46,311 nt of DNA from an uncultured Desulfovibrionaceae bacterium. Its GTDB lineage: Bacteria > Desulfobacterota > Desulfovibrionia > Desulfovibrionales > Desulfovibrionaceae. The first letter of the stretch is position 1, and every line of letters begins with the position of its first letter. Made by a program: the position numbers and the translations under genes. The stretch is taken from NCBI GenBank assembly GCA_964367875.1, contig CAYJAL010000001.1, positions 1 to 46,311 of the forward strand. The letters are read 5' to 3'. Shown in pieces: positions 2,037-30,455 of the stretch. The notes under the pieces are model-generated. The model ran no database searches and was not told where the DNA came from. It saw only the letters and a list, made by a program, of their open reading frames with translations.

Positions 2037-3731
2037 ATGACACATTCTCCCCCTTTTAACCATGATGCTACAAGACAGCGCCCCCTGCGTTTACGCAAGG
2101 CCGATTTTATGGGTAAAGTATGCAGCTTGCCCAGCGGCGCCGCCTCCTATGAAAGATTAGATAGCCATGCTAAGCTTACAGCGCACATACTTTTGGGCAC
2201 AGCAGGCTTATGGGGGCAAGAAGGCCTAGAAAAGCTATTACCCCATGCAGATATGCTTAAAGACAATACCCCTGTGGCGGTGGTGGAGAGCGAACATTTT
2301 TTTGCTAGCCTATCAGATGAAGAAAAAAGATTTTATCCTGTATTACCAGACTATTGGAAAACCGCAACAACGCAACAACAAGCACTTGCCCTCTTAGCTC
2401 TATGGCAAGAAAAATACACAGTGGCGCTGTGGTGGTATACGTACAATGAGCGTTTGTATCCCGAATTTTGGGAAACCATTATGGGCAGCATTTTACAGGT
2501 AAATATGTTGCAGCATACAAAGAAGATACAACACACCCCACAGCTCCCTAAAATACTTTTGGGCTGTGCGCCGCATCAATTGCTGGAGCAAGAAATCACG
2601 CAAGCCTTTACGGAGCTTGGCTATGAAGTCTTGCCTGTACGCCAAGGGGGTTTTAGTTGTAACCAAGGAAAAAATAAGCCCGACGCCCTGCCCGACGCCC
2701 TGCCCGACGCTCTACATGATGCCTTGGGCAGCAAGCAAACGGTGCTCTTCTTTTCGCTCAATGCGCAAGGCCTAGATGCTGAGGGGCGAGACTTTGCCCT
2801 CTTACGCGCGCTGAATATTCCTGTGGCTTTGTGGTTTGTGGATAATCCGTGGCATGTACTGGCTTCCTTGCGTCTGCCATGGTGGAAAAAAGCTTTGCTT
2901 ATGCCCACCGATGATTCCTTTATACAGCCCTTACAAGATGCAGGCGCCACGCAAGTATTGCATATGCCCTTGGCCGCAGCAGAACATATGTGGCAAGCGC
3001 AACAACAACACCGCAACACACCGCATATATTAGACTTACAAAAGAAAGCACAAAGCGCCACTTGTATCTTTGTAGGTAATGCAGCCTTTGCGCAAAAAAA
3101 CGCCTTCTTTGCGGCAGCTAAGCTTAATGAAAAACTTTTCTTCCAAGCACAAAAACTTATACAAAGCGGAAAAGAATCACCGCACTATCATTGGTGGGCT
3201 CAAGCTATGTATATGGATTGTTATTGGCAGCATGCGCAGTTACGCCATGTGGGATTTAATGCAGAACAAAGCGCTCAATTTCAGCGCGTGCATTGGCTAC
3301 AACACTTTGCTCAAGAAAATGTAGCCATCTTTGGAGATACAAAGAACTGGCAAAGCTTACTGCCCACGCTCAAAGCCCATTGCTTTCATGCTGCGGTGGA
3401 TTATTACACGGACTTGCCAAGCCTTTATGCAGCGGCAAACAGCGTGCTTAATGTTACATCCTTACTTTTGCCGACAGGCCTAACCCAAAGGCATTTTGAT
3501 GTATGGGCAGCGGGGGGTTTTTTATGGACAAATCACACCAAGGGCTTGGATATATTTGCACAAGAGCTAGTAAAGCCCATAGCTTTTACCCGCGTTGAAG
3601 ATATGAAAAAGGCCTTGCTCAGTATGCCCTATGGGCAAAAGCAAGACCTCAAAAAAGGCTGGCAAGAAGAGCTACGCACAAAGCATAGCTATGTCATGCG
3701 ACTGAAAAAACTTTTAAACTCTATTGGCTAA
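2037..3731 (+). CDS. CgeB-like (DUF3880 plus glycosyltransferase-like C-terminus) protein, function unknown
   Basis: 564-aa ORF with GAGG 5 nt upstream of the ATG. LFFSLNAQGLDAEGRDFALLRALNIPVALWFVDNPWHVL and the C-terminal LNVTSLLLPTGLTQRHFDVWAAGGFLWTN resemble CgeB-type proteins. This is from memory only, not searched. Confidence 0.55.
   Translation: MTHSPPFNHDATRQRPLRLRKADFMGKVCSLPSGAASYERLDSHAKLTAHILLGTAGLWGQEGLEKLLPHADMLKDNTPVAVVESEHFFASLSDEEKRFYPVLPDYWKTATTQQQALALLALWQEKYTVALWWYTYNERLYPEFWETIMGSILQVNMLQHTKKIQHTPQLPKILLGCAPHQLLEQEITQAFTELGYEVLPVRQGGFSCNQGKNKPDALPDALPDALHDALGSKQTVLFFSLNAQGLDAEGRDFALLRALNIPVALWFVDNPWHVLASLRLPWWKKALLMPTDDSFIQPLQDAGATQVLHMPLAAAEHMWQAQQQHRNTPHILDLQKKAQSATCIFVGNAAFAQKNAFFAAAKLNEKLFFQAQKLIQSGKESPHYHWWAQAMYMDCYWQHAQLRHVGFNAEQSAQFQRVHWLQHFAQENVAIFGDTKNWQSLLPTLKAHCFHAAVDYYTDLPSLYAAANSVLNVTSLLLPTGLTQRHFDVWAAGGFLWTNHTKGLDIFAQELVKPIAFTRVEDMKKALLSMPYGQKQDLKKGWQEELRTKHSYVMRLKKLLNSIG
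2679..2726 (+). repeat. In-frame 12-bp tandem repeat (cccgacgccctg x3 plus one degenerate unit) encoding PDAL-PDAL-PDAL-HDAL
   Basis: Read directly: cccgacgccctg (2679..2690), cccgacgccctg (2691..2702), cccgacgctcta (2703..2714), catgatgccttg (2715..2726). Confidence 0.9.
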
Positions 3732-4198
3732 TAAATAGCCTTACGCATGCGCCATAAATGCGCCGCCGTAAGCAGTGCAAAAGCGCCGCCGGCCATATAG
3801 TGAGCTTTTTTATTGCCCACACCGCCGCTAAGCAAGGTCACCATAAAGGTGGAAATCATGCTGGCGTGAATAATTTTGCGCTTTTGCGCCTTAGTAAGCT
3901 TGGTGGGTAAGGCAAGAGGCTTGGAGCTCGCGGCGGCTGGGGTCTCTTCCTTGGCGCCATTTTCCTTAAGCCATTCTTCACCTTGGCTTAAAAGCACTTG
4001 AATTTCTTCATCGCTAATAAACTCGGCATCATAATGAATAAGCAAAGAGCCCGTAATGGCCTTATGCTCAATGCTTTGAATGCCATTCATTTCTAGCAAA
4101 AAAGTGCAAATTTCTTGCCCAATGGCGGCATCCTTCAAAGCAGGATGGCGCAAGCGAATACGCCCTTCAGTAAAAGAAACTATATAATCTTCTAACAT
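3728..4198 (-). CDS. Membrane-anchored HMA-like (cysteine-motif-less) domain protein
   Basis: 156-aa ORF. The N-terminal VSFTEGRIRLRHPAL...SIEHKAITGSLLIHYD parallels the N-terminus of the upstream ATPase. The C-terminus has two hydrophobic helices (IIHASMISTFMVTLLSGGVG and HYMAGGAFALLTAAHLW). The start lies 1 nt after the ATPase stop. Confidence 0.6.
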   Translation of the reverse strand: MLEDYIVSFTEGRIRLRHPALKDAAIGQEICTFLLEMNGIQSIEHKAITGSLLIHYDAEFISDEEIQVLLSQGEEWLKENGAKEETPAAASSKPLALPTKLTKAQKRKIIHASMISTFMVTLLSGGVGNKKAHYMAGGAFALLTAAHLWRMRKAIY

Positions 4199-4199
4199 C

Positions 4200-6344
4200 T
4201 TATACCTCGCTGCATGTATTTTCTACAAGGTCTTGGTCATGCACCACCGGCAAGTGCGGTCTGGTGGCATTGATAGTCACGCCCACTGTGGTCACATTAT
4301 GCAAAACGGCAGATAAGGTGGGGGTAATAATGCCAAAAAGACTGGCCGCTAAAAAGGCAGAGTTCAAGCCCATATTGGCCACAAAATTGCCTTTAATGCG
4401 TTGCACAACCTTTTGCCCCAACTGACGTGCCACCACAAGCGATTGTAAATTACTTTCTAATAGCACCACATCAGCCACTTCTTTAGCTAAGTCGGTACCA
4501 TCGCGCAAACTTACGCCCACATCGGCCATGGAAAGACCAGGCGCGTCATTGACGCCATCGCCCACCATAATAACCTTGCAGCCTTGAGCTTGCAAAGCTT
4601 GCACAATTTGTGCTTTGTCCACCGGTAAAATACCGGCATGAAATTCTGTAATGCCCAAATGGTCAGCCATATTTTTGGCAGCGCGTCTATCATCGCCTGT
4701 AAGCATAACCACACGCTTAATGCCGCTTTCTTTAAGCTGCTCAATAACGTCTGCTGCTTCGGGGCGCACGGTATCGCGTATGGCAATAATGCCGGCAATG
4801 GCTCCACCTTTAGCAAGGTATAACATGGAATAGCCCTGAGCTACAAGGCGTTCCACTTGCTCTTCCAAGGGGCTGATATCAATATTTTCATCATCACGTA
4901 CATAGTGGCGACTGCCAAGCAATACACGCTCTCCGTGCAATTTGCTGGCAATACCATGAGCAACCACATATTCCACTTCGCCATGCTCTTCTTCGTGCAT
5001 AAGATTTTGCAGCTCTGCCTCGCGCACAATGGCTCTAGCCACAGGGTGCGGAAAGTGCTCTTCCATACACGCAGCAAGGCGCAAAATTTCTTGCGGCGTA
5101 CTGCCTTCACATGCCAGCACCTCAGCCACTTCAGGCTTGGCCTGGGTCAAAGTACCAGTCTTATCAAATACTATGGTGTCTGCTTCGGCAAGGGCTTCTA
5201 AAAAGACGCCGCCCTTAATAAGCACACCGCGGCTAGCAGCCTCGCGCATGGTGGCTAAAATGGCCAAAGGCGTAGCCAAACGCAATGCGCAAGAATAATC
5301 TACCAAAAGCACGGATGAGGCGCGGATAGGATCGCGCGTTACAAGATACACAAGGCCGGCCAATAAGAAGGTAAAGGGCACTGCGCCATCAGCCATGCGC
5401 AAGGCGCGGCTTTCTATATCAGCCTTTAAGCTTTGAGAATCTTCGATAAAATCTATAATTTTTTGCAGGCGCGTTTCAGAAGCTAAAGAGGTGGGACGCA
5501 CCAAAATGGCGCCTTCTTCCACCACGGTGCCGGCATATACCGAGCACCCCGCATTGCGTACAACGCCTTGCGGTTCCCCTGTCATGGAAGATTGATTCAC
5601 CACTGCTTCACCGCCCACCACAAGGCCATCTACCATGATGACGGCACCGGTGCGCACAATAACTTCATGCTCAAGGGTAAGCTGGCTAAAGGGAATACGT
5701 ACCTCTGTATCGCCATCGCGCACCCAAACATTATCCACATCCAGCGCCAAGCTTTGCGCAAGCCCTTCGCGCGAATGGTGGCGCGTCCAAGATTCTAAGG
5801 CTTCACCAAGTCCTAAAAGGAAGGTGAGCATGCTTACGGTGGGATAATCGCGGCGCCATAAGGAAATACCAATGGCTGTTGCGTCTAAAAGCTCCACATT
5901 GATATGCCCCTTGCACAAGGATTTCAGCCCTTGTAACAAATGAGGAATGGCAGATCTAAGGCTGCAGATAATGCGCAACCAGGGCGGCATTAAGGGGCGC
6001 AATAAAATGTAACGTACGATGGGCCATAATAAGGGGAATTTACCCATTTTTTCTGGCAAGGCCACCGCATGGCTTACTAAGGCTAAGGTGGAAGAACGCG
6101 TACAAACCGGCGGCGTTGTATCTTCTACCTGTAAAAACTCTAAGGCTTTAGCGCGCGACTTTGCGCTGGAATACCAAAAAAGCACCGAACCACTACGCGG
6201 ATTGATACTTATTTCTTGTATACCTTCTATGCCTTCAAGAGCGGTCTGCCACTGCTGGGCAGTACGTTTGGAAAGAGGACAAAGGGAACGCGCACGCAAT
6301 CTGCCTACGCTTCCTTGAATTTCATGAACAATAGTACACTGCAT
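4200..6344 (-). CDS. Heavy-metal-type (P1B) P-type ATPase with non-canonical TM4 motif
   Basis: 714-aa ORF with DKTGTLT (DKTGT = 5151..5165), MLTGD and GDGVNDAP. TM4 reads LLVDYSCALRLATP (YSCA = 5286..5297) where CPC/SPC is expected. The N-terminal HMA-like domain has no CxxC. Confidence 0.9.
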   Translation of the reverse strand: MQCTIVHEIQGSVGRLRARSLCPLSKRTAQQWQTALEGIEGIQEISINPRSGSVLFWYSSAKSRAKALEFLQVEDTTPPVCTRSSTLALVSHAVALPEKMGKFPLLWPIVRYILLRPLMPPWLRIICSLRSAIPHLLQGLKSLCKGHINVELLDATAIGISLWRRDYPTVSMLTFLLGLGEALESWTRHHSREGLAQSLALDVDNVWVRDGDTEVRIPFSQLTLEHEVIVRTGAVIMVDGLVVGGEAVVNQSSMTGEPQGVVRNAGCSVYAGTVVEEGAILVRPTSLASETRLQKIIDFIEDSQSLKADIESRALRMADGAVPFTFLLAGLVYLVTRDPIRASSVLLVDYSCALRLATPLAILATMREAASRGVLIKGGVFLEALAEADTIVFDKTGTLTQAKPEVAEVLACEGSTPQEILRLAACMEEHFPHPVARAIVREAELQNLMHEEEHGEVEYVVAHGIASKLHGERVLLGSRHYVRDDENIDISPLEEQVERLVAQGYSMLYLAKGGAIAGIIAIRDTVRPEAADVIEQLKESGIKRVVMLTGDDRRAAKNMADHLGITEFHAGILPVDKAQIVQALQAQGCKVIMVGDGVNDAPGLSMADVGVSLRDGTDLAKEVADVVLLESNLQSLVVARQLGQKVVQRIKGNFVANMGLNSAFLAASLFGIITPTLSAVLHNVTTVGVTINATRPHLPVVHDQDLVENTCSEV

Positions 6345-6362
6345 GACGTTCCCTCAAAAAAC

Positions 6363-6614
6363 CTAGGCTTCGGCCTTTTCTTGTGTAGCTTTACGCTTTT
6401 CAGAAGTATTTTGGGCTTCTGCCACTAAATCCTCTACAGTTTCTTTCAAGGTTTCTACCTTGCCCATAACGCAATCTTTGGCATCCATGCCACGGCTAAG
6501 TAAATCTGCTGCCATAGGACGAAATGCAGAGTTCCCACTTAAGGCTTGCTTTGCCATGGCACCAACGACCACACCACCTAAAAATACCAAACCGAAACGT
6601 AAAAATCCTTGCAT
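6363..6614 (-). CDS. Small single-pass membrane protein with charged Glu/Ala/Lys-rich tail (first gene of the ATPase cluster)
   Basis: 83-aa ORF with an AAGGAG-like SD (aaaaaggagtagtat ATG on the minus strand). It has the N-terminal hydrophobic helix FGLVFLGGVVVGAMA. There are 18 nt between its stop and the ATPase start. Confidence 0.55.
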   Translation of the reverse strand: MQGFLRFGLVFLGGVVVGAMAKQALSGNSAFRPMAADLLSRGMDAKDCVMGKVETLKETVEDLVAEAQNTSEKRKATQEKAEA

Positions 6615-6668
6615 ATACTACTCCTTTTTGTATTCCCCATGAGGGAAAAATATAATGTTCTTTCAGCA

Positions 6669-6696
6669 TATCTAACACGGAAAAAGACTTTTGCAA
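6669..6696 (-). promoter_or_regulatory. Candidate sigma70 promoter of the ATPase cluster
   Basis: On the minus strand: TTGCAA (6691..6696), a 16-nt spacer, then TAGATA (6669..6674), about 55 nt upstream of the 83-aa ORF. Weak match found by eye only. Confidence 0.25.
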
Positions 6697-6939
6697 GCCT
6701 CCTTATATGTTAAAACGCTTAAGAATGATTGGCGTTTTCATTTACCTAGAGCATTTTACTAGGGATAGCAAGCTTTTTTTGAACTTAAACTTCAATTTTA
6801 CGCCTTATTTACATATTTCTATAAAAATTTTTTCCTATAATATTTACCTATTATAAAAACACAAAGGAGATATTAAGCAATAATTAACATGTAAAACATA
6901 TGGTTATTCTGAATGTTAATTTCATTGAAGAATTTTACA

Positions 6940-9396
6940 TTACCTCATAATTTCTTGCTGCCATCGCAAATGCCCATAATAAGCCTGTCCCAAAGAAATA
7001 CCGCCATCATTGGGGGGAATATCTTTAGCGCGTAATACAGTGAATCCATATTTCTGCAAGCTCATAGACAAAAGACTGTGAAAAGTGGTATTTTGCATAA
7101 CACCGCCGCAAAGCACCATATTTTGTATGGGCTTTGCGTATTCCTGCGACGCCTTATGTGCCATATAAGCACAATTTGCTGCCAAAGCATGATGAAAAAA
7201 GGCAGCAGCAGCGCCCACACCTTGGTCAGCATGCACACGTAAAGTTTGCACAAAAATTTCTTGCGCCCCCACTTGCCACAAATCGCCCTCTTTGCGTACA
7301 GCATTATACAGCGTGCTTACATCAAAAATAGATCCTGAGGTATAGAGGTTTTTATCTTGAGCATATTCAAGACGTATGGCCGCTTGCCCCTCATGGCTGG
7401 TCGTGTCACATAAGCCCAGAGCCGCAGAAACAGCATCAAAAAGGCGCCCTACGCTGGACGTTAAGGGTGAGCGAATGTTTTTTTCCAGCATTTCCAACAC
7501 GGCAGGCGCCATGGGGTATTTTTGCACCAGCTCCTGCTCAAAATCCGTTCCCTTAGCCAAGGCTATGGCCATGCGCCACGGCTCGCGTATGGCTTGCTCC
7601 CCTCCTGGCATAGCAAAGAGGCTAAGGCGCCCAAGCCTGCTATGGGTGGCACCATCTATGTAGAGCAATTCGCCGCCCCATATGGTGCCATCCAGTCCAT
7701 AGCCTGTACCATCAAGGCTTAAGGCTAGGCAAGGCTGCGGCATACTTTCTTGCTCGGCCAATACGGCATAGGCATGGGCAAAATGGTGCTGCAAAGGGTA
7801 TTTTACAATGCCGCGCTCTTGTGCCAGCTCCTCAGCCACACGCGTGGAAAGAAAATCAGGATGGGCATCATGCACAAGCACTTGCCCCTGCACTCGGAGG
7901 AGCATTTCTGTATGGCTTAGCACTTGACGGTAAAAATCTAAGCTTTCCAGATTTTGCAAATCCCCCACATGCTGCGATACAAAGGCTTTGCCTTGACGCG
8001 TAAGGCAAAGGGTATTTTTGAGCTCTGCCCCCATGGCCAATACGCAAGGCGCTGCATCGCCATCTATGGCTAAGCTTATGGGACGCGGCACATAACCTCT
8101 GGCGCGGCGCAAAAATACCGTATGCTCTTCTTCTCCTATACTGTGCACGGCGCATACAGAATCGTCATTGCGTACCAATATATCGCGATCATGCAACAAA
8201 AACACCTCTGCCACCGAGCATAAATTGGCTACAGCTTCCCTATTGCCTAGGCAAATGGGATTACCTGCCGCGTTGCCTGAAGTCATAACCAAGGCCAAGG
8301 GATATTGCGCCATGGCGTTTTTGCGCAAGTGCTGAAATAAAGCCATGTGCAAGGGGGTATAGGGTAAAACAAGGCCTATGGTATCTGTATCGGGAGCTAA
8401 TATAGAAGGTAATATATTCTTACGTTTACAGAGTACTATGGGCTTTTCTTTGCTGCATAAAAGAGCTTCTTCTGCCGGGCTAATATGCGCAAAAGCATGA
8501 GCACTTTGTATATTCTCCACCATAACCGCAAAGGGTTTATGAGGGCGAGATTTATATTTTCGCAAGCGCGCAATGACCTCTTCATTAAGGGCATCACAGG
8601 CCAAATGAAAACCACCAAGCCCTTTCACGGCGGCAATACGCCCTTGCTGTAAGGCGAGGCTGAGGGCGCGTAAGGCTTCTTGCCCTTTGCCCTGTTCTGC
8701 CACTGTATGCCATGCGGTATCCGGCAAATACCCAGCGCTATCTTTTTCCACATACCAAAGCTTTGGCCCGCACACAGGGCAAGCATTGGGCTGAGCATGG
8801 AAGCGCCTATTAAGAGGATCGTCATATTCCGCCTGACAGGCAGCACAGAGTGGAAAGCAGGCCATGGATGTGGTGGCTCTATCATAGGGAATACTATGGG
8901 TAATGGTATAGCGCGGCCCGCAATTGGTGCAATTGGTGAAGGGATACATATAGCGTCTATTATCTTCTTGCAGCATATCCTCTTCACATTGAGCGCACAT
9001 GGCCACATCAGAGCTTATAAGCACGCTATGGGCACCGGCTTCTGCCCCTTGGCTATGAATAATAATAAAGTTTTCTTCCTGCCCTTGCGGCGCCATGGGG
9101 CTTTGGGAAAAAGCACTGAGCTGCGCCAAAGGGGGAAGTTTATCTTGAATATCTTGGGCAAAGCTTTGCAATGCAGCTTCTGCCCCTTGCACCTCTATAT
9201 AGACTCCCTGCGCTGTATTGCATACATGCCCGGTGAGGCCATATTCCAAGGCTAAACGATAGATAAAAGGGCGAAATCCCACCCCTTGCACTTGGCCTTG
9301 AGCCACAATTTGCTTGCGGGCAAGGTTTGCATAAGAGGTATGCTCCGAATCTGCCTTCTCGGTGGAAGGTGTTGCTGTAAAAGATGTAGTAGACAT
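6940..9396 (-). CDS. hypF: [NiFe]-hydrogenase maturation carbamoyltransferase HypF
   Basis: 818-aa ORF with an acylphosphatase-like QGQVQGVGFRPFIYRLA. It has two zinc-finger pairs (CAQCEEDM...CTNCGPRYTI and CAACQAEYDDPLNRRFHAQPNACPVCGP), then YrdC-like and Kae1-like C-terminal domains. Confidence 0.95.
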   Translation of the reverse strand: MSTTSFTATPSTEKADSEHTSYANLARKQIVAQGQVQGVGFRPFIYRLALEYGLTGHVCNTAQGVYIEVQGAEAALQSFAQDIQDKLPPLAQLSAFSQSPMAPQGQEENFIIIHSQGAEAGAHSVLISSDVAMCAQCEEDMLQEDNRRYMYPFTNCTNCGPRYTITHSIPYDRATTSMACFPLCAACQAEYDDPLNRRFHAQPNACPVCGPKLWYVEKDSAGYLPDTAWHTVAEQGKGQEALRALSLALQQGRIAAVKGLGGFHLACDALNEEVIARLRKYKSRPHKPFAVMVENIQSAHAFAHISPAEEALLCSKEKPIVLCKRKNILPSILAPDTDTIGLVLPYTPLHMALFQHLRKNAMAQYPLALVMTSGNAAGNPICLGNREAVANLCSVAEVFLLHDRDILVRNDDSVCAVHSIGEEEHTVFLRRARGYVPRPISLAIDGDAAPCVLAMGAELKNTLCLTRQGKAFVSQHVGDLQNLESLDFYRQVLSHTEMLLRVQGQVLVHDAHPDFLSTRVAEELAQERGIVKYPLQHHFAHAYAVLAEQESMPQPCLALSLDGTGYGLDGTIWGGELLYIDGATHSRLGRLSLFAMPGGEQAIREPWRMAIALAKGTDFEQELVQKYPMAPAVLEMLEKNIRSPLTSSVGRLFDAVSAALGLCDTTSHEGQAAIRLEYAQDKNLYTSGSIFDVSTLYNAVRKEGDLWQVGAQEIFVQTLRVHADQGVGAAAAFFHHALAANCAYMAHKASQEYAKPIQNMVLCGGVMQNTTFHSLLSMSLQKYGFTVLRAKDIPPNDGGISLGQAYYGHLRWQQEIMR

Positions 9397-9559: not shown

Positions 9560-10444
9560 ATGGAAGAAAGATCTCAAGAAAAAACACAGCAAGAAGCCCC
9601 CTCCCACAGCTCGCGCATGGCCGACATTTTACAAGATAAGCAGCATAAAGAATTACTTTTTTACTTATCCATAGCCATTTTCTTTTTAGAACTCATCGTG
9701 GGCGGTGTGGCATTTTTTTATGGTATTATCCACGCCATACCCGGAGAAAATGGCGGGCCGCCTCAATTTCAATTCCCTTGGCTCACCTATGGTATAGCCG
9801 CCATAGTGGCACCGGCAGCCCTCTTACTTATAGTACATATGGCTGGCGTAGGGCTTTTCCGCTCCATGCAGAAAAAAAGCCCCGAAGAGGAAGAGGCTTG
9901 GCGCGAAAACCTGCCGCATCGCTTACAAAAAGTCTATACCATCATTCAAGGCGCCCCCACCATTGTGCTTTTCTTAGGGGTTATTTTATTGGGTGTGGCA
10001 CTTTTTTATGTGGACGGCGCCATTGGTATAGTTATGAGCATGGGCAGAGCACTAGCACCCTACTGGCCATGGATTTTGGGCGGAGGCCTTGGCGCCATTT
10101 GCTTTATTTACACAGGCAAAGCCTATTTTGCCTATCGCACCAAACGCATGGAACAAGAGTACGCCTTTAGGCGCGAAGTTTTTGAGCGCACTGGGCAAAT
10201 ACTTGTGGATAGAGGCACGGTGCAATTGCCACTAGCCTATGATGTGAGCCAAGCAGAACCCATGGCACTGCATGGCAATGCTGTTACTGTAGAGGCCTTA
10301 CCCACAGGGACAAAGCCAGCAGATACTGTGGCAAATACTGTAGATGCAGAACACATTGTGGACATTGTTGCGCCTGTTGTGGATAAAGACAATAACGCGC
10401 AAGATGTAGAAATTATAGAAGATAAAGAAGAAAAGAAAGCTTAA
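9560..10444 (+). CDS. Hypothetical polytopic membrane protein with acidic C-terminal tail
   Basis: 294-aa ORF with several hydrophobic helices (LLFYLSIAIFFLELIVGGVAFFYGII, IAAIVAPAALLLIVHMAGVGLF, TIVLFLGVILLGVALFYV). No recognisable family. Weak SD. Confidence 0.6.
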   Translation: MEERSQEKTQQEAPSHSSRMADILQDKQHKELLFYLSIAIFFLELIVGGVAFFYGIIHAIPGENGGPPQFQFPWLTYGIAAIVAPAALLLIVHMAGVGLFRSMQKKSPEEEEAWRENLPHRLQKVYTIIQGAPTIVLFLGVILLGVALFYVDGAIGIVMSMGRALAPYWPWILGGGLGAICFIYTGKAYFAYRTKRMEQEYAFRREVFERTGQILVDRGTVQLPLAYDVSQAEPMALHGNAVTVEALPTGTKPADTVANTVDAEHIVDIVAPVVDKDNNAQDVEIIEDKEEKKA

Positions 10445-10605: not shown

Positions 10606-11346
10606 TCATTGCATCCAAGGGCAAAAACTTATGGCCGCATGGCTTAGGTTTTCGCCCTTTTTTCGTGCATACAGGCATAGACTAGGCTCCACGCTTACAT
10701 CATGCGCCGCATCTTTTTGGGCTGCCAACAGCACCCAACGCGCCTTTTTTTCCGGCCTGCTATGCACCGCAAGCATGGAGCGTAGCCCAAAGCCGTGCTT
10801 TTGCAGGGCAAAGCTCATATCCAGCATATGCTCTGCTGCATAAATACTAAAAAACCACCCATGATGGCGTAGCAAGCGCTTAGCCGCGCCACAAAAAATA
10901 TCCGCCACACCGGCCTGCTCTTGTTGCAAAGCGTCTTGATGTAAGGCCAAAGCTCTGGAGGCATTCTTACTCACGCGACCCTTTTTATAATACGGCGGAT
11001 TAGCCATCACACAGGCAAGCCCCGTAAAGCTATGCTCAGCACACAGAGTAGCCAAGATTTTTTTTTGCGCCAAGTCCACCTGAGCAAAATGCAACATATC
11101 TTGCATGCCTTCTTCTTGACAAAGTTGTATGGCGCGCACCAAGGCTTGTTCTTGTACATCTATGCCCAGCGCCGTCACTTCCTTGCCATGCCCTTTTTGC
11201 AAGGCCTTGGCCAATACGCGCATGGCAAGAGCCTCCCCACAACCCAACTCGGCAAAGCGCGTGGTCTTGGGGGCGTGGCGGCGTACATAGGCTGCCAAAA
11301 GAAGAGCATCCGTACCGGAACGAAAAGAAGCATCATGAGCTGTCAT
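10606..11346 (-). CDS. SAM-dependent N6-adenine methyltransferase (TrmN6/YfiC-like)
   Basis: 246-aa ORF with the SAM-binding motif FAELGCGEALA and the catalytic motif VMANPPYY (NPPY). The tRNA substrate is an inference from family resemblance. Confidence 0.65.
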   Translation of the reverse strand: MTAHDASFRSGTDALLLAAYVRRHAPKTTRFAELGCGEALAMRVLAKALQKGHGKEVTALGIDVQEQALVRAIQLCQEEGMQDMLHFAQVDLAQKKILATLCAEHSFTGLACVMANPPYYKKGRVSKNASRALALHQDALQQEQAGVADIFCGAAKRLLRHHGWFFSIYAAEHMLDMSFALQKHGFGLRSMLAVHSRPEKKARWVLLAAQKDAAHDVSVEPSLCLYARKKGENLSHAAISFCPWMQ

Positions 11347-12854: not shown

Positions 12855-13580
12855 TTAGTTTTGTTTATCAAATACAACTTGTTCTGACGAAGTTTCTTCT
12901 GATACCTCTTGTTCCGCCGCTGCTTTTTCTGAATCAACTTTTTCTTGGGCTGCCTTTTCTTGCGCTGCTTTCTCAGCCGCTATTTTTGCTGCTGCAGCCT
13001 TTTCTTTTAAATCTTTCTTAAAGGCTTCATAAGATTTTTCGGCATCTTCTCCCAAATAAGGATAAGCACGCGCGCCGCCTTCAAAAACCTTGGCATTCTC
13101 ATCTAAAATACGCAGAGAATACACCGTGCTTTTATATTTTTCACAATGCCCCATGACAGTGACTGCGCTAAAATAAGGCCCCACATGAACCAAACGTGTC
13201 ACCGCCGGCATATCGGTATTGTGTTTTAGGTCAAAAGTCATACCGCCGTCCACATCGCGACCATTTTTTCCTTGTAAATTTTGGTAAAAAGAAATGACCA
13301 TTTCGCGAAAGGGCACATTTTGGTGCGGCACAACCATAGCAGACAAAGCGCAAAGCCTTTGCGGATGACTAAGCACAACAAGACTTTCTTCTTTATACAC
13401 CGTCCATTGATGCGGTATATCTATGCTAAAATTCTCAAAAGATTGACCTTGTGCATGAGCGCCTAGATCTTTTGGAGCGCAATGCGCGCTTGCGCTCCAG
13501 ATAAAGCACAAGAGCAAGCCCATCGCCATAGCGCCAAAGGCTTGCTCCTTGCCATATAGTACTTTATTTTTCAGTAGCAT
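12855..13580 (-). CDS. Hypothetical secreted protein with Lys/Ala/Glu-rich C-terminal repeats
   Basis: 241-aa ORF with a signal-peptide-like MAMGLLLCFIWSASAHC. The C-terminal tail is KEKAAAAKIAAEKAAQEKAAQEKVDSEKAAAEQE. Its ATG overlaps the upstream gene's stop (TAATG at 13578..13582). Confidence 0.6.
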   Translation of the reverse strand: MLLKNKVLYGKEQAFGAMAMGLLLCFIWSASAHCAPKDLGAHAQGQSFENFSIDIPHQWTVYKEESLVVLSHPQRLCALSAMVVPHQNVPFREMVISFYQNLQGKNGRDVDGGMTFDLKHNTDMPAVTRLVHVGPYFSAVTVMGHCEKYKSTVYSLRILDENAKVFEGGARAYPYLGEDAEKSYEAFKKDLKEKAAAAKIAAEKAAQEKAAQEKVDSEKAAAEQEVSEETSSEQVVFDKQN

Positions 13581-19458: not shown

Positions 19459-19614
19459 ATTTGTCCTGTTTTTAAATGAATACTTAAAAGTCTACATATT
19501 TTTTACAACTTTAAAATACAAGGAAAAGAACTTTTTTCGCAAATTTCAGCTGCGCAAAAATCTTTATTACAAAGACAAAGCGTAGCCGCAATGAAAGTTT
19601 TTTGGAAAAGGGGT

Positions 19615-19655
19615 CTGGGGAAAGAACCTTTTTTTTAAAAAAGGTTTTTCCCCAG
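19615..19655. repeat. Near-perfect 41-nt palindrome upstream of yccF
   Basis: ctggggaaagaacctttttttt pairs with aaaaaaggtttttccccag, with a single 1-nt bulge and essentially no loop. Confidence 0.7.
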
Positions 19656-19718
19656 TAGACTTTGTCAACAATCTGTGTCGTACAGGACATACGACCAAAA
19701 GTCATCTTAAGGAATACT

Positions 19719-20174
19719 ATGAGCTTATTAGGTAATATTATTTGGTTTGTACTTGGCGGGGTCTTTATGGGGCTTATGTGGTGGATTTTTGGCGTGCTGG
19801 CCTTTATTTCCATCATTGGTATTCCCTTTGGTCGTGCCTGCTTTGTTATGGGCTCTTTTGCCTTCTTTCCTTTTGGTAAGGTCATTATCGAGCGCGATAC
19901 CCTTACCGGTAAAGAAGATGTGGGTACCGGCGCCCTAGGCCTTGTGGGGAATATTATATGGTTTATCTTTGCAGGTCTCTGGATTGCCTTGGGGCATTTA
20001 GCCTCAGCACTGGCTTGCGCCATTACCATTATTGGTATTCCCTTTGCGTGGCAGCATATTAAATTGGCCGCTTTGGCCATTAGTCCCATTGGCAAAACGG
20101 TGGTTCCCACTGCTGTGGGCGCCGCGGCGCAGCAAAAAGCCGCAGAAGCCTTTGTGGATAAAATGCGCCAATAA
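19719..20174 (+). CDS. yccF: YccF-domain inner membrane protein
   Basis: Duplicated motif: MSLLGNIIWFVLGGVFMGLMWW...IGIPFGRACF, then LVGNIIWFIFAGLWIALGH...IGIPFAWQH. ATG 19719 has an AAGGA SD. The upstream TTG extension is rejected. Confidence 0.85.
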   Translation: MSLLGNIIWFVLGGVFMGLMWWIFGVLAFISIIGIPFGRACFVMGSFAFFPFGKVIIERDTLTGKEDVGTGALGLVGNIIWFIFAGLWIALGHLASALACAITIIGIPFAWQHIKLAALAISPIGKTVVPTAVGAAAQQKAAEAFVDKMRQ

Positions 20175-20202
20175 TGGTGCTGTAACAATGCCATAGAAAT
20201 AT

Positions 20203-20256: not shown

Positions 20257-21768
20257 CTATGCCATGGCCGATTGCGCCACAAGCACGGTTACTTGTACAT
20301 TATCTTCGGTAAGTACATCAAAGCTTCTATAGTCAACACCTGCAATGTCCACTGTGGCTTGTGGTGCTTGCGCTTCATCAAAACTTACCTTGTTTGCATT
20401 TTGCGTCATACCAAGGTTTTGTAACAGAGCATCAGAAGACATACCTTTGAGCATGTCATCAGAAGCACCCAATACGTACATTTCTATACTGCTATTATCC
20501 GAAGCAGCAATATATCCTATATTATTGAGTGAATCCACTCCAGCCAAGAGAATGTCTATACCATCGCCACCATCAGCTTTAGCAGAGAAAATATCATCAA
20601 AGGCAATATTTCCCAAAACAATAACATCATCGCCTGTGCCGCCACTAATAGTAGAATCTTCTAGGTCACCAAAGAGAACATCATCACCAGCACCGCCATA
20701 GAGCCAATCATTACCGCCACTACCTGTAATGGTATCATCTCCGGCTCCGGCATAAAAGACGCCTCCACCATCCACGGTAAACTTATCAGCATCATTGGTT
20801 GCTATGTAAATATCGGATCCGCTAACAGTGTCATCCTTAAGTAATACAGAAATCTTTTTTTCAAATACGCTACCATCGGGCGCTGTTTCTTTCACGGTAA
20901 ATTGCATATCATTGGGGACATCATTGATTGCATTCATGCTAACAGTGAATTTTACCGCATCCCCTTGCTGCTCCAATTGCACAGATCCATGTTTTGTGGT
21001 TCCTTCGTGAATTTCATAATACCCCGCTGTAGTTGTTTCTACCAAGGTATAGGCCGCATTGGTTAAGCTAAGCGCCACATCAGATAAGAGCAAACCGTGG
21101 TCGCTTGTGAAGGTTCCTACTGCCACTGCAGGCAAGTAAGCTGCATCAAAATGCCCATCGGTTACGCTAATGGTACTTGCATAGGTAGGCGCTGGTACCA
21201 CAGAGGAATTAGGCACGCTGGGTACAGAACTACTTTCTGCAAGGCTTGGAATAAATGTTTCAAATGCTAGAGTCGAAGCGCCAAGGCTTAACGGAAGATT
21301 TTCTTCTGCGTTGTCAGCCAATAAACTGGCTAACGATGTGACGTTAGAAGAAGCATCATCTTCCTCTCCATCACTTGCCTCTTCGCTCACAAGAACATTT
21401 TCTTCCTGTACTTCTGCGGCTTTTTCCATGGCTAGGCTAGAACCGCCGCTTTTGGGCGCAGGCTGCGGCGTGTTTTCCCCTTGCTCAGTATCTGTGCCTG
21501 TTTCAGCAGCTATTTGCTCAAAAAACTCTTCTCCCGATAATTCCTTACCATTGACCACAAAGGAAGGTGCTCCTTGGCCGGAAACGCTCGCATAAGCGCC
21601 GCTCACAGTAACGGTGCTGCCTTGACCAAAGTCCACCACCAAATCATCACCTTGGCGTGTAATCTTGGCTTCATTCTCAGAAAAATCCAGTAAAAATCTA
21701 TTGTCAGCTGTGGGTGTTATGACCACAGAAGAACCATCTTTGGGTTTTGAAATACTAACGTCAGCCAT
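20257..21768 (-). CDS. RTX-type calcium-binding repeat secreted protein
   Basis: GGxGxD nonapeptides AGAGDDTITGSGGNDWLYGGAGDDVLFGD...GGTGDDVIV span 20614..20751. I set the start at ATG 21768 (MADVSISKPK), which has GGAGG upstream. There is no signal peptide, consistent with T1SS-type export. Confidence 0.8.
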   Translation of the reverse strand: MADVSISKPKDGSSVVITPTADNRFLLDFSENEAKITRQGDDLVVDFGQGSTVTVSGAYASVSGQGAPSFVVNGKELSGEEFFEQIAAETGTDTEQGENTPQPAPKSGGSSLAMEKAAEVQEENVLVSEEASDGEEDDASSNVTSLASLLADNAEENLPLSLGASTLAFETFIPSLAESSSVPSVPNSSVVPAPTYASTISVTDGHFDAAYLPAVAVGTFTSDHGLLLSDVALSLTNAAYTLVETTTAGYYEIHEGTTKHGSVQLEQQGDAVKFTVSMNAINDVPNDMQFTVKETAPDGSVFEKKISVLLKDDTVSGSDIYIATNDADKFTVDGGGVFYAGAGDDTITGSGGNDWLYGGAGDDVLFGDLEDSTISGGTGDDVIVLGNIAFDDIFSAKADGGDGIDILLAGVDSLNNIGYIAASDNSSIEMYVLGASDDMLKGMSSDALLQNLGMTQNANKVSFDEAQAPQATVDIAGVDYRSFDVLTEDNVQVTVLVAQSAMA

Positions 21769-22085
21769 AATCCCCTCCATTATGCTTGGACTAGCGTAAA
21801 TGTACGCATGGTAAAAAAACGTGCAATCAAAGAAAAGCCCAAAATGCATGTAAAAATTCTAAAACACCATGGACGAATACAGAATCGCTGGGGCAATTTT
21901 TCCCAGTAAATACGGAATAAGAAATGCTACACAAGCTTACTAAAAAAAGCAGCTGTACTTTCCCTGTATAATATTTCATTTTATAAGTCAACATAAAAAG
22001 GGTTTTTTGCTTATTTTCTTTTTTCTAAAAAAAACATAGTAAAGCAGTAACTTATATTTTACTTCAATAAAAAGTTTCTTACTGA

Positions 22086-22141: not shown

Positions 22142-23617
22142 TTAATTTCGCTTCAGCTCCATGGCTTTTTGCAACATGGCATCAGCGGTGGTTACCACCT
22201 TGCTATTACTCTGGAAACCGCGCTGGGTAATAATCATATTTACCATTTCCGCAGACATGTCCACATTGGAGCCTTCGGTATAATTGGAAATAATATCAGC
22301 ATAGTTTTCTGTGCCGGCCTTGCCAAGTTCTGCAGGGCCAGATTCCGGCGTGGCAGAATATAAATTACCGCCCTCACGGCGTAGGCCATCTTGGCTGGTA
22401 AAGCGCGCCACAGGAATCTCATACAAAACAGCATCTTGATTATTACTATAGGAGCCTAAAATCTCTCCATTGGTGCCAATGGTAATATTGGTTACAAAGC
22501 CTTCTGTATAACCATCTTGCTCATTTAAGTGCATGCTATTACTACCGGAAAAAGCCGTAGTAGCATTGCCTGTGAGGGTAGAATTGGCTGTGGAACCCAG
22601 CATGGTTCTGTCTGTACCCACCGCCGCCGCTGTGGCCGCCACATTTTGCATATTTCCTGTAAGGCCAAAATCCAGACCTATGCTTTGTCCATTATAAGTA
22701 AAAACACCCTGCCCACTACCATTGGTAGAAGCTTGCACCCAATTATTAAGATCAGAAGTATCCCCTGTGGGCGTAAAGTAGCTCACACCCATAAGATTCC
22801 CTGCAGAGTCAAAGGTCATGGTGCCGGAAAGTAGGGCTTGACCCTCGGCATTATGCTCACTGGCATTGGCCGCCACCACAAATTCCATCACGCTGTCCGG
22901 ATCTGCCGAAGGCGCTCCATCCACATACAATGTTAAGTCGTGGGAATTACCTTCAGCGTCATACACACGTATGGGCTGGGTGTAGCTATATAAATCTTCC
23001 GACAATGGAGGATTAGAAGTGCCGTCATAACTTTTAGCCAAGGTGAAGTAAGGATCTGTAGTGCTGGCAGAATTATCTTCTATTTTACCAAGGTTAAAGC
23101 CAAGGCTTACCTCTGTGGTTGCTTTGGCAGGCATGGTGTCAAATTGATCTACCTGTATGGGCTCAAGAGCGCCCCTATTGCCTTCTAAGTCCACCGAATA
23201 TCCCATGAGATTGCTGCCATCTGGGAGGGTTAAATAGCTTTCTTCATTAAAATTAAAGTTTCCAGCACGGGTGTACATGGTATCGCCGTCCACCGTTTGC
23301 ACCTGAAAAAAACCATCGCCGCTTAAGGCTAGGTCGGTAACGGAGCTGCCAAGCTCAAAAGAACCTTGCGTAAAAATAGTTCGAATATCACTTACTTGAA
23401 CGCCCATACCCACTTGGTCTAGGGCTACGTAGGATTGTTCGTTACCATTCCACGAATTGCCGGTATTCCCTTCAGATTTATAGATAAGATCTGCGTATTG
23501 TATATTTTGTTGCTTATAGCCAATGGTGCTTACATTGGCCAAGTTCTGAGACACAACATTCATGCCCTCAGATAAACTTTTCATGCCCGTTGCACCGATA
23601 TAAAGAGAACTCATCAT
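22142..23617 (-). CDS. flgE: Flagellar hook protein FlgE
   Basis: 491-aa ORF with the N-terminus MMSSLYIGATGMKSLSEGMNVVSQNLANVSTIGYKQ (flagellar basal-body rod/hook motif). The C-terminus is IITQRGFQSNSKVVTTADAMLQKAMELKR. Confidence 0.9.
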   Translation of the reverse strand: MMSSLYIGATGMKSLSEGMNVVSQNLANVSTIGYKQQNIQYADLIYKSEGNTGNSWNGNEQSYVALDQVGMGVQVSDIRTIFTQGSFELGSSVTDLALSGDGFFQVQTVDGDTMYTRAGNFNFNEESYLTLPDGSNLMGYSVDLEGNRGALEPIQVDQFDTMPAKATTEVSLGFNLGKIEDNSASTTDPYFTLAKSYDGTSNPPLSEDLYSYTQPIRVYDAEGNSHDLTLYVDGAPSADPDSVMEFVVAANASEHNAEGQALLSGTMTFDSAGNLMGVSYFTPTGDTSDLNNWVQASTNGSGQGVFTYNGQSIGLDFGLTGNMQNVAATAAAVGTDRTMLGSTANSTLTGNATTAFSGSNSMHLNEQDGYTEGFVTNITIGTNGEILGSYSNNQDAVLYEIPVARFTSQDGLRREGGNLYSATPESGPAELGKAGTENYADIISNYTEGSNVDMSAEMVNMIITQRGFQSNSKVVTTADAMLQKAMELKRN

Positions 23618-30282: not shown

Positions 30283-30287
30283 AATTT

Positions 30288-30337
30288 GAGCCGCTTTGCG
30301 TAAAAAGAAACAGCCTACTTTTTGCGCATTGCGGCTC
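30288..30337 (+). terminator. Hairpin/terminator candidate after the NlpC/P60 gene
   Basis: gagccgctttgcg (30288..30300) pairs imperfectly (11/14) with gcgcattgcggctc (30324..30337), followed by tttcatttt. Confidence 0.4.
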
Positions 30338-30387
30338 TTTCATTTTCCAAACATGTATTTTTAAAACCTTTTTTTCATGCTTTTATC

Positions 30388-30416
30388 TTGCATTGTTAAG
30401 CGCATTGCGCTATGCA
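30388..30416 (+). promoter_or_regulatory. Candidate promoter with palindrome in the spacer, upstream of the MerR-like gene
   Basis: TTGCAT (30388..30393), a 17-nt spacer ending in the palindrome gcgcattgcgc (30400..30410), then TATGCA (30411..30416). The -10 element is weak. Confidence 0.3.
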
Positions 30417-30455
30417 AAAAGAGCAATGACTTTTTTGTCGCATAGGAGGGGTACT

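What the first reader, a model, noticed from the sequence alone, without database searches (positions are those of the whole stretch)
3728..6614. Three-gene metal-pump module built around a P1B-type ATPase lacking the canonical TM4 CPC/xPC motif
Seen:
- The 714-aa ORF has DKTGTLT (5151..5165), MLTGD and GDGVNDAP, so it is a P-type pump.
- Its layout is P1B-like, with an HMA-like N-terminus, ALRLATP after the TM4 motif, and LHNVTT in the last TM region.
- Where Cu/Zn/Co pumps read (C/S/T)PC-ALGLATP, this protein reads D-Y-S-C-A-LRLATP (YSCA = 5286..5297). The near-universal TM4 proline is Ser and the first Cys is Tyr.
- The N-terminal approximately 70 aa (IVHEIQGSVGRLRARS...) has no CxxC.

Established knowledge, from memory and to be verified: pumps with an SCA motif in TM4 were separated bioinformatically as subgroup P1B-6, with no experimentally assigned substrate.

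Inference: the pump and its two flanking small membrane genes (18-nt and 1-nt gaps) form one functional unit of unknown cargo.
Basis: partly seen in the sequence, partly recalled or inferred. Interest (0 to 1): 0.7.

Follow-up and report, generated by a model that had tools for sequence, protein, structure and literature searches.

The report
Ferrosome (fezABC) iron-storage operon
The three genes are an ordinary copy of the already described fezABC operon, which builds ferrosomes, membrane-bound iron-storage granules of anaerobic bacteria; the odd pump motif is that family's signature, not a new kind of pump.

Summary
Three co-directional minus-strand genes (6363..6614, 4200..6344, 3728..4198; gaps of 18 and 1 nt) surround a P1B-type ATPase. 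Its TM4 reads D-Y-S-C-A where solved CopA structures have C-P-C.

D[Y/F]SCA in TM4, HNxxT in TM6 and an N-terminal RxRxR motif define P1B-6 = FezB, the ferrosome pump (Grant et al., bioRxiv 10.1101/2020.01.10.902569; Pi et al. 2023, cited in PMC12574912).

- The 83-aa gene matches FezA: DUF6110, an N-terminal helix and a GxxxG motif.
- The 156-aa gene matches FezC: an HMA_2 domain with GRIRLRHP, plus a C-terminal helical hairpin.
- This is the fezABC layout of Desulfovibrio magneticus.
- A FezA-like gene lies directly upstream of the pump in 78 of 80 related genome loci.
- A FezC-like gene follows in most non-Firmicutes loci and is absent from almost all Firmicutes loci.
- The pump is 39% identical (546 bits) to the studied C. 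difficile FezB, against 264 bits or less for solved P1B-1/2/4 pumps.

Most likely function: a Fur-controlled operon that loads Fe(II) into cytoplasmic ferrosome vesicles. Direct Fe(II) transport by any FezB remains unshown. Verdict: already known, low interest.

The parts
6363..6614 (-). fezA: 83-aa small membrane protein with an N-terminal hydrophobic helix (residues 3-25). It carries GxxxG (G14-V-V-V-G18, nt 6561..6575) and has a charged C-terminal tail.
   Evidence: Pfam DUF6110 scores 37.3 bits against a cutoff of 26. The motif FLGGVVVGAMA matches the GxxxG subgroup 2-4 of Grant et al., which contains FezA DMR_28320 (86 aa) and DVU3330. It is 31% identical (E 1e-10) to the ORF directly upstream of C. 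difficile fezB. A homologue lies directly upstream of the pump, on the same strand, in 78 of 80 loci.
4200..6344 (-). fezB: 714-aa P1B-6-type ATPase. Features: N-terminal HMA_2-like domain (residues 1-71, nt 6132..6344); R-rich motif R15-L-R-A-R19 (6288..6302); TM4 DYSCA (5286..5300); DKTGTLT (5145..5165); GDGVNDAP (4539..4562); TM6 HNVTT (4287..4301).
   Evidence: Family scores are, and the alignment to solved CopA is. R15, R17, R19, D349, Y350, S351, C352, H682, N683 and T686 are invariant in 14 homologues. Motif counts over 80 loci are. It scores 546 bits against C. difficile FezB and 687 bits against the D. desulfuricans homologue. The AF2 model has the P1B fold, with top PDB matches CopA and ZntA.
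3728..4198 (-). fezC: 156-aa protein. It has an N-terminal HMA_2 domain (residues 6-80, nt 3959..4183) with the R-rich motif G-R-I-R-L-R-H (4145..4165), a low-complexity linker, and a C-terminal helical hairpin (residues about 108-150, nt 3749..3877).
   Evidence: Pfam HMA_2 scores 38.7 bits against a cutoff of 30. The motif 'EGRIRLRHP' matches subgroup 3-2 of Grant et al., which contains FezC DMR_28340 (146 aa, 'EGRIRFRHP') and DVU3333. The AF2 domain is beta-beta-alpha-beta-beta-alpha, and its best PDB matches are HMA metal-binding domains at weak E-values. It is present downstream of fezB in the closest relatives and in most non-Firmicutes loci.
6615..6939 (-). AT-rich upstream control region. 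Candidate delta-proteobacterial Fur boxes lie at 6909..6925, 6821..6837 and 6779..6795 (4 mismatches each to WTGAAAATNATTTTCAW) and at 6725..6741 (5 mismatches). A candidate promoter is TTGCAA (6691..6696), a 16-nt spacer, TGT, then TAGATA (6669..6674).
   Evidence: Three of the 28 sites with 4 or fewer mismatches in the whole 46.3-kb window fall in these 325 nt. Such sites are enriched upstream of fezA in Desulfovibrionaceae-like loci: 1.24 per region against 0.15 in shuffles. The blocks are conserved in three relatives with 81-86% identical pumps, including one with a different upstream gene. The consensus comes from PMC545781. The promoter is an inference; it did not pass the tool's consensus filter.

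Best explanation
This is a fezABC ferrosome operon of an uncultured Desulfovibrionaceae bacterium, with the same gene order and protein types as the characterised fezABC of Desulfovibrio magneticus.

FezB is a P1B-6 P-type ATPase. It is inferred to use ATP to pump Fe(II) from the cytoplasm into small intracellular lipid-bounded vesicles, the ferrosomes. There the iron precipitates with phosphate as a store. The metal site is formed by the unwound TM4 segment (D349/S351/C352) and by TM6 (H682/N683/T686), in place of the CPC and Met/Ser ligands of copper pumps.

FezA is a single-pass GxxxG membrane protein. FezC is an R-rich HMA_2 domain on a membrane hairpin, paralogous to FezB's own N-terminal domain. 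Both are ferrosome-membrane partners needed to form or stabilise the compartment.

The operon is probably repressed by Fur when iron is replete and expressed under iron limitation.

Shown here: family membership, motifs, synteny and fold. Taken from the literature on orthologues: organelle formation, iron content and Fur control. Inferred: Fe(II) as the transported ion, the roles of FezA and FezC, and Fur control in this organism.
For: 1. All three motifs that Grant et al. use to define FezB/P1B-6 are present and invariant among homologues: D[Y/F]SCA, HNxxT and N-terminal RxR(xR).
2. Grant et al.'s Table S1 lists D. piger, D. desulfuricans, D. vulgaris DVU3332 and D. magneticus DMR_28330 as FezB, with these same motifs. 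The window protein is 53% identical to the D. piger protein and 52% to a D. desulfuricans one.
3. It is 38.8% identical over 695 aa (546 bits) to C. difficile FezB. That protein's motifs match the published table entry exactly. The best solved P1B-1, P1B-2 and P1B-4 pumps score 236-264 bits.
4. The flanking proteins match the FezA (GxxxG) and FezC (R-rich HMA) subgroups in length and motif.
5. Synteny: a FezA-like gene lies directly upstream in 78 of 80 loci. A FezC-like gene lies downstream in most Desulfovibrionaceae, Sutterellaceae, Deferribacterales and Synergistaceae loci. The block stays intact in a close relative whose upstream neighbour has changed.
6. fez genes are required for ferrosomes in four species, and FezA plus FezB suffice in E. 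coli. The operon is Fur-repressed in C. difficile, and ferrosome iron is a ferrous phosphate mineral.
7. Candidate delta-proteobacterial Fur boxes are enriched and conserved upstream.
Against: - No experiment exists for this organism.
- No transport assay for any FezB was found in the papers read. The 2026 preprint still writes that Fe(II) imported by FezB 'may' accumulate.
- The Fur-box matches in the window are weak (4-5 mismatches of 16). The E. coli Fur consensus gives nothing above chance.
- There are no other iron genes in the 46-kb window.
- FezC's two C-terminal helices are only weakly hydrophobic and were modelled at low confidence.
- No reference sequences for P1B-5, P1B-7 or CtpC were available, so no full subfamily phylogeny was built.
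Confidence: 0.85

Rival explanations
1. A cytoplasmic-membrane metal efflux (detoxification) pump for Fe(II), Zn(II) or Mn(II). The two small proteins would act as scaffold or chaperone partners, by analogy with the P1B-6-like CtpC and its PacL1 partner in Mycobacterium tuberculosis.
For: - Most P1B ATPases are exporters at the cell membrane.
- CtpC clusters with P1B-6 and is co-expressed with a small single-pass membrane protein.
- Direct transport data for FezB are lacking.
Against: - CtpC has CPC in TM4; this protein has YSC.
- FezA shows no similarity to PacL/DUF1490, even at E up to 10.
- The flanking genes are the ferrosome-type FezA and FezC, and orthologous clusters are required for intracellular iron granules.
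- In C. difficile, loss of fezB lowers rather than raises cell iron in a fur mutant.
Confidence: 0.08
2. An orphan P1B-6 module with an unknown, non-iron cargo.
For: - Some recent reviews still call P1B-6 'poorly understood'.
- NCBIfam has no specific model: the best hit is the generic TIGR01525, and the two small proteins match no family.
Against: - Another review already lists P1B-6 as Fe(II).
- The ferrosome literature ties this exact motif set and gene cluster to iron storage.
Confidence: 0.05
3. A decayed or non-functional pump whose TM4 metal site was lost.
For: The near-universal TM4 proline and the first cysteine are missing.
Against: - All catalytic motifs are intact: TGE, DKTGT, HP, MLTGD and GDGVNDAP.
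- The replacement motif is itself invariant across hundreds of relatives.
- The ORFs are full length with ribosome-binding sites.
- The AF2 model still unwinds TM4 just before YSC.
Confidence: 0.02

Closest known systems
fezABC operon of Desulfovibrio (Solidesulfovibrio) magneticus RS-1 (DMR_28320-28340), the first characterised ferrosome gene cluster (Grant et al., bioRxiv 10.1101/2020.01.10.902569)
   Same: - Same order: small GxxxG protein, then the P1B-6 ATPase, then the R-rich HMA protein.
- Similar lengths: 83/714/156 aa here against 86/743/146 aa.
- Same motif classes: D[Y/F]SCA, HNxxT, GR.R.R, and 'EGRIR[LF]RHP' in FezC.
- Same bacterial family-level lineage and an anaerobic lifestyle.
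   Different: - TM4 reads DYSCALR here and DFSCAIK in RS-1. TM6 reads HNVTT here and HNLAT in RS-1.
- The RS-1 sequences were not in hand, so identity was not measured directly.
- The host here is an uncultured, probably gut-associated Desulfovibrionaceae. The source is inferred only from the named relatives (Mailhella, D. piger, rumen and faecal MAGs).
Clostridioides difficile FezA/FezB (Pi et al. 2023, as cited in PMC12574912, PMC12485843 and PMC13307979)
   Same: - FezB is 38.8% identical over the full length and has the same motif classes.
- A FezA-like DUF6110 gene lies directly upstream (31% identity).
- The C. difficile system is Fur-repressed, required for ferrosomes and sufficient in E. 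coli.
   Different: - C. difficile and the other Firmicutes loci lack the downstream FezC gene.
- The window has the three-gene proteobacterial layout.
DVU3330-DVU3333 of Desulfovibrio vulgaris Hildenborough, and the homologous clusters of D. piger and D. desulfuricans
   Same: - They are listed by Grant et al. as FezA-like, FezB and FezC-like proteins.
- A D. vulgaris P-type ATPase-domain gene was predicted in 2004 to carry three overlapping Fur boxes.
   Different: - FezC of D. piger and D. desulfuricans is short (95-96 aa), and those loci have an extra divergent HMA_2 gene upstream.
- That the 2004 gene is DVU3332 rests on my memory; it was not checked.
CtpC-PacL1 'effluxosome' of Mycobacterium tuberculosis (P1B-6-like)
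   Same: - It is a P1B ATPase related to the P1B-6 clade. Its N-terminal domain lacks CxxC and carries an R-rich motif.
- It is partnered with a small single-pass membrane protein.
   Different: - CtpC has CPC in TM4 and exports Zn at the cell membrane.
- PacL1 is DUF1490, which is not detectably related to FezA.

Membership tests
P1B-type (heavy-metal) P-type ATPase | Catalytic core motifs: TGE (A domain), DKTGT (phosphorylation site), HP (N domain), MxTGD and GDGxNDxP (P domain) | tested here: met
   MTGEP is at residues 254-258, DKTGTLT at 394-400, HP at 433-434, MLTGD at 547-551 and GDGVNDAP at 595-602. TIGR01525 scores 507 bits against a cutoff of 346. The predicted structure's top PDB matches are CopA and ZntA.
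P1B-type (heavy-metal) P-type ATPase | (C/S/T)PC or CPH motif in TM4 | tested here: not met
   Aligned to solved CopA, the CPC position reads Y350-S351-C352. This is the known exception that defines subgroup P1B-6.
P1B-6 ATPase / FezB | D[Y/F]SCA in the metal-binding TM4 | tested here: met
   DYSCA is at residues 349-353 (nt 5286..5300). The motif is invariant in 14 homologues and present in 78 of 80 genome loci.
P1B-6 ATPase / FezB | HNxxT in the last TM helix | tested here: met
   HNVTT is at residues 682-686. The motif is found in 80 of 80 loci. H682 aligns with the Met of the L. pneumophila CopA (3rfu) MALSS segment.
P1B-6 ATPase / FezB | N-terminal R-rich motif (RxR or RxRxR) and no CxxC or His-rich metal-binding domain | tested here: met
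   G-R15-L-R17-A-R19 is present, and these arginines are invariant in 14 homologues. RxR is found in 77 of 80 loci. There is no CxxC in residues 1-100.
P1B-6 ATPase / FezB | Closer to validated FezB than to other P1B subgroups | tested here: met
   It scores 546 bits against C. difficile FezB, against 264 (CopA), 243 (ZntA) and 236 (P1B-4 7qbz). No P1B-5, P1B-7 or CtpC references were available, so this is a score ranking, not a phylogeny.
P1B-6 ATPase / FezB | Encoded in a fez cluster with GxxxG and/or R-rich small membrane proteins | tested here: met
   DUF6110 (GxxxG) lies upstream and HMA_2 (R-rich) lies downstream. The arrangement is conserved in relatives.
P1B-6 ATPase / FezB | [quoted passage not shown] | not testable with these tools
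   This needs electron microscopy, genetics or biochemistry. Genetic evidence exists only for orthologues.
FezA (GxxxG protein, Grant subgroup 2-4; Pfam DUF6110) | An 80-130 aa protein with an N-terminal hydrophobic helix carrying GxxxG, encoded next to fezB | tested here: met
   The protein is 83 aa, with a helix at residues 3-25 and G14xxxG18. DUF6110 scores 37.3 bits against a cutoff of 26. The motif is aligned with DMR_28320 and DVU3330. It lies 18 nt upstream of fezB.
FezC (R-rich HMA protein, Grant subgroup 3-2; Pfam HMA_2) | N-terminal HMA-type domain with a GR.R.RH motif | tested here: met
   HMA_2 scores 38.7 bits against a cutoff of 30. The protein carries 'EGRIRLRHP'. The modelled fold best matches HMA domains, at TM-score 0.6-0.69 normalised to the target but weak E-values of 0.006-0.1.
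FezC (R-rich HMA protein, Grant subgroup 3-2; Pfam HMA_2) | Two C-terminal transmembrane helices | tested here: inconclusive
   Two helices are predicted at residues 109-124 and 130-155, but pLDDT is below 50 and hydropathy is only moderate. No dedicated topology predictor was available.
CtpC/PacL-type zinc effluxosome | CPC in TM4 and a PacL (DUF1490) partner | tested here: not met
   TM4 reads YSC. FezA has no DUF1490 hit at E up to 10.

The most novel reading that the evidence does not exclude
The most novel reading not excluded concerns the R-rich HMA_2 domain. It is found both fused to FezB and free-standing on FezC's membrane hairpin. It would not be a metal-binding domain at all. Instead it would be a paralogous in-cis/in-trans module that targets or gates the pump at the ferrosome membrane, for example by binding phosphate, lipid head groups or the pump's cytoplasmic domains through the invariant arginines. 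The three-gene proteobacterial operon would then work differently from the two-gene Firmicutes one. A lesser possibility is that this lineage's pump carries a metal other than iron.
Probability: 0.12. Interest if true: 0.45.

Novelty: already known. Interest (0 to 1): 0.12.

Why it matters
For discovery it matters little. The locus is an orthologue of a published system.

It has some practical value:
- NCBIfam, which NCBI uses for annotation, has no FezA, FezB or FezC model. [quoted passage not shown] Ferrosome operons therefore go unrecognised in genomes and will keep being re-flagged as 'atypical orphan pumps'.
- It adds another probably host-associated Desulfovibrionaceae lineage to the list of likely ferrosome makers. 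A 2025 review calls for finding such commensals and pathogens.
- The open question it touches is whether FezB really transports Fe(II), and what FezA and FezC do. That question is real, but this locus does not make it easier to test than the cultured models already in use.

Tried and rejected
1. E. coli-type Fur box (GATAATGATAATCATTATC) upstream of fezA. The best window match has 6 mismatches, no better than shuffled sequence. I replaced it with the delta-proteobacterial consensus.
2. Sigma-70 promoter and terminator consensus scan of 3500..7000. It found nothing in the upstream region or downstream of fezC, and total counts were below shuffle expectation. The promoter I propose rests only on conservation.
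3. PacL/DUF1490 relationship for FezA. No hit at E up to 10.
4. NCBIfam scan for specific FezA or FezC models. None exists.
5. Reading the Chem Rev 2024 review for P1B-6. The relevant part lies beyond the stored 300,000 characters. Pi et al. 2023 (PMC10822667) is not held.
6. Word-based homologue search with FezC. It returned only 13 proteins, so the FezC model is shallow and only moderately confident.
7. A first regular expression for the TM4 motif was too strict and missed 57 of 80 sequences. I corrected it.
8. I looked for other iron genes (feo, fur, ferritin) in the window. None was found among 35 ORFs scanned.
9. A full phylogeny against curated P1B-1 to P1B-7 references could not be built, because reference sequences for P1B-5, P1B-7, CtpC and PfeT were not retrievable with these tools.
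Full report
**Observation.** The minus strand of 3728..6614 carries three tightly packed ORFs:
- 6363..6614 (83 aa)
- 4200..6344 (714 aa)
- 3728..4198 (156 aa)

They are separated by 18 nt and 1 nt. Each is preceded by a Shine-Dalgarno-like sequence.

The 714-aa protein is a P1B-type ATPase.
- It scores 507 bits against TIGR01525 (cutoff 346) and hits Pfam E1-E2_ATPase and Hydrolase at about 1e-33.
YSCA is at 5286..5297. DKTGT is at 5151..5165, and the full DKTGTLT runs from 5145.
- GDGVNDAP, MLTGD and LHNVTT are all present. There is no CxxC in the N-terminus.

**Is TM4 really non-canonical?** Yes.
- HMMER alignment to the sequences of solved CopA structures (3j08/3j09, 3rfu) places 'vdYSCAlrlatp' opposite 'vaCPCAfglatp' and 'iaCPCAlglatp', with high posterior support. 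Tyr350 takes the place of the first Cys and Ser351 takes the place of the Pro.
- In the same alignment, H682 of HNVTT sits opposite the Met of the MALSS segment in L. pneumophila CopA (3rfu), a metal-site position in TM6.
- An AlphaFold2 model (pLDDT 71.5) has the P1B fold. It breaks the TM4 helix at residues 347-349, immediately before YSC, even without the proline. Its best PDB matches are CopA (4bbj) and ZntA (4umw).

**What it is.** A literature search on 'P1B-6' led to the ferrosome papers.
- Grant et al. (bioRxiv 10.1101/2020.01.10.902569) purified iron granules, the ferrosomes, from Desulfovibrio magneticus. Three enriched proteins were encoded by one operon, fezABC.
  - FezA is small, with a hydrophobic N-terminus.
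  - FezB is a P1B-6 ATPase, defined by D[Y/F]SCA and HNxxT in the metal-binding helices and by an N-terminal R-rich RxR(xR) motif.
  - FezC has an N-terminal HMA domain and two predicted TM helices.
- Deleting fezBC abolished ferrosomes.
- The fez clusters of Shewanella putrefaciens and Rhodopseudomonas palustris are likewise required. The Shewanella cluster is sufficient in E. coli.
- Later work on C. difficile, as cited in the papers read, reports four things:
  - FezA and FezB are required for ferrosomes.
  - They are repressed by Fur.
  - They are sufficient for ferrosome formation in E. coli.
  - Ferrosome iron is a vivianite-like ferrous phosphate.

**Match of the window proteins.**

*FezB.*
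- It has DYSCALR, HNVTT and G-R-L-R-A-R.
- In an alignment of 14 homologues at 53-100% identity, R15, R17, R19, D349-C352, H682, N683 and T686 are invariant.
- Supplementary Table 1 of Grant et al. lists DESPIG_01416 (D. piger), Ddes_1752, DVU3332, the Bilophila homologue and DMR_28330 as FezB, with the same motif strings.
- The window protein is 53% identical to the D. piger protein (P0112). It is 52% identical (687 bits) to a D. desulfuricans homologue and 38.8% identical (546 bits) to C. difficile FezB.
- The C. difficile protein's motifs (HEIRGRIRFDLQ, DFSCALK, HNAST) equal the published table entry.
- The best solved P1B-1, P1B-2 and P1B-4 pumps reach only 236-264 bits.

*FezA.*
- The 83-aa protein hits Pfam DUF6110 above threshold.
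- It has one strong N-terminal helix with G14xxxG18.
- Its 'FLGGVVVGAMA' lines up with the GxxxG subgroup 2-4 of Grant et al. That subgroup holds FezA DMR_28320 (86 aa), DVU3330, DESPIG_01417 and Ddes_1751.
- It is 31% identical (E 1e-10) to the ORF directly upstream of C. difficile fezB.

*FezC.*
- The 156-aa protein hits Pfam HMA_2 above threshold.
- Its 'EGRIRLRHP' matches subgroup 3-2, which holds FezC DMR_28340 ('EGRIRFRHP', 146 aa), DVU3333 and RPA2338.
- Its modelled N-terminal domain is beta-beta-alpha-beta-beta-alpha, the same order as in FezB residues 3-71.
- The two domains align at 32% identity over 47 residues, including GR.R.R and (T/S)GS.L..Y.
- The best structural matches are classic HMA metal-binding domains (ATP7B, RAN1, Menkes, MerP), at TM-score 0.6-0.69 normalised to the target. 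The E-values are weak (0.006-0.1) and the model is of moderate confidence.

**Synteny.** I scanned one genome per species for relatives of the pump, kept the best 80 loci, and searched their ORFs with iterated profiles of the window's FezA and FezC.
- A FezA-like ORF exists in 79 of 80 loci; the exception is a truncated contig. In 78 it lies directly upstream on the same strand.
- A FezC-like ORF follows the pump in most Desulfovibrionaceae, Sutterellaceae, Deferribacterales, Synergistaceae and Methanoperedens loci.
- It is absent from almost all Firmicutes loci. This agrees with the two-protein FezA/FezB system of C. difficile.
- Three MAGs with 81-86% identical pumps have the window's gene order: hypF, fezA, fezB, fezC, a convergent glycosyltransferase-like gene, rlmE, yebC, ruvC.
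- In one of them the upstream neighbour is a different gene, yet the three-gene block and its upstream region are retained.
- The three-gene-unit idea is therefore supported.

**Regulation (inferred).**
- The E. coli Fur consensus gives no signal.
- Rodionov et al. (PMC545781) derived a different delta-proteobacterial Fur box, WTGAAAATNATTTTCAW. They predicted overlapping boxes upstream of a D. vulgaris gene with P-type ATPase domains.
- With that consensus, 3 of the 28 sites with 4 or fewer mismatches in the 46.3-kb window fall in the 325-nt region upstream of fezA: 6779..6795, 6821..6837 and 6909..6925.
- Such sites are about eight-fold enriched upstream of fezA in Desulfovibrionaceae-like loci relative to shuffled controls.
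- Two of the window sites, plus a weaker one at 6725..6741, lie in blocks conserved among the close relatives.
- A conserved TTGCAA-N16-(TGT)TAGATA element at 6669..6696 is a plausible promoter, but it did not pass the tool's consensus filter.

**Mechanism.**
- Most likely, FezB pumps Fe(II) into cytoplasmic vesicles whose membrane also holds FezA and FezC. Iron then mineralises with phosphate and is drawn on during iron starvation.
- Family membership, motifs, fold and synteny are shown here.
- Organelle formation, iron content and Fur control are shown only for orthologues.
- Fe(II) as the transported species, and the roles of FezA, FezC and the R-rich motif, remain inferences even in the literature.

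**Rivals.**
- A CtpC/PacL-like efflux platform is unlikely. CtpC has CPC in TM4, and FezA is unrelated to PacL.
- A decayed pump is excluded by the intact catalytic motifs and the invariance of the replacement motif.

**Context.** The rest of the window is housekeeping chromosome of a Desulfovibrionaceae bacterium. It carries ruvC, yebC, rlmE, hypF, an acyl-CoA ligase, flgE, an amino-acid ABC transporter, parAB, rsmB, fmt, def, aspS, hisS, purF and gyrA. There are no further iron genes.

**Verdict.**
- It is the known ferrosome operon, so the 'no assigned substrate, unknown cargo' reading is outdated.
- Novelty: already known. Interest: low.
- The one useful by-product is that NCBIfam has no Fez-specific model, so pipelines that rely on it still label these genes generically.

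Noticed in passing
window 3728..3731: The stop codons of fezC (minus strand) and the convergent 564-aa Glyco_trans_1_2-like gene (2037..3731, plus strand) overlap by 4 nt. There is no room for a terminator between them, and no terminator-like hairpin was found there. In the three closest relatives the two genes are either separated by about 65-75 nt or overlap by 8 nt.
   Followed up: partly
window 6651..6697 (minus strand): A block of about 45 nt (CTTGCAAAAGTCTTTTTCCGTGTTAGATATGCTGAAAGAAC) lies 40-85 nt upstream of the fezA start. It is the best-conserved part of the intergenic region among four relatives. I read it as a promoter plus 5' leader, but a regulatory RNA or another protein-binding site was not excluded.
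   Followed up: partly
L008, L009, L010, L011, L018, L019 (Desulfovibrio loci), about 700-850 nt upstream of fezB on the opposite strand: Several Desulfovibrio loci carry an extra HMA_2-like ORF, divergent from fezA. Their downstream FezC is short (about 95 aa, as in D. piger and D. desulfuricans in Grant's table). FezC architecture therefore varies within the family. The window has the long D. magneticus-like form.
   Followed up: no
L016 874..3138 and 3851..6142: This locus appears to have two tandem pump-like ORFs with HMA_2-like N-termini, and fezA lies 3.4 kb upstream. This is reminiscent of the two FezB copies of D. alaskensis (Dde_0495 and Dde_0498).
   Followed up: no
window 9560..10444, 10606..11346, 12855..13580, 19511..20194, 30240..31283: Five ORFs of 227-347 aa have no Pfam family at E <= 1e-5. 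The first is a predicted multi-pass membrane protein with an acidic C-terminal tail.
   Followed up: no
window 20257..21849: A 530-aa protein with RTX calcium-binding nonapeptide repeats (HemolysinCabind, E 8e-15) lies next to the flagellar hook gene flgE (22142..23617).
   Followed up: no
window 4200..6344 (FezB residues 100-144): The AF2 model predicts two further helices (106-118 and 121-144) before the six clearly hydrophobic ones. They are Arg- and Pro-rich and only moderately hydrophobic. Whether FezB has 6 TM helices (as in Grant et al.) or 8 (as in other P1B pumps) is not settled by these data.
   Followed up: partly
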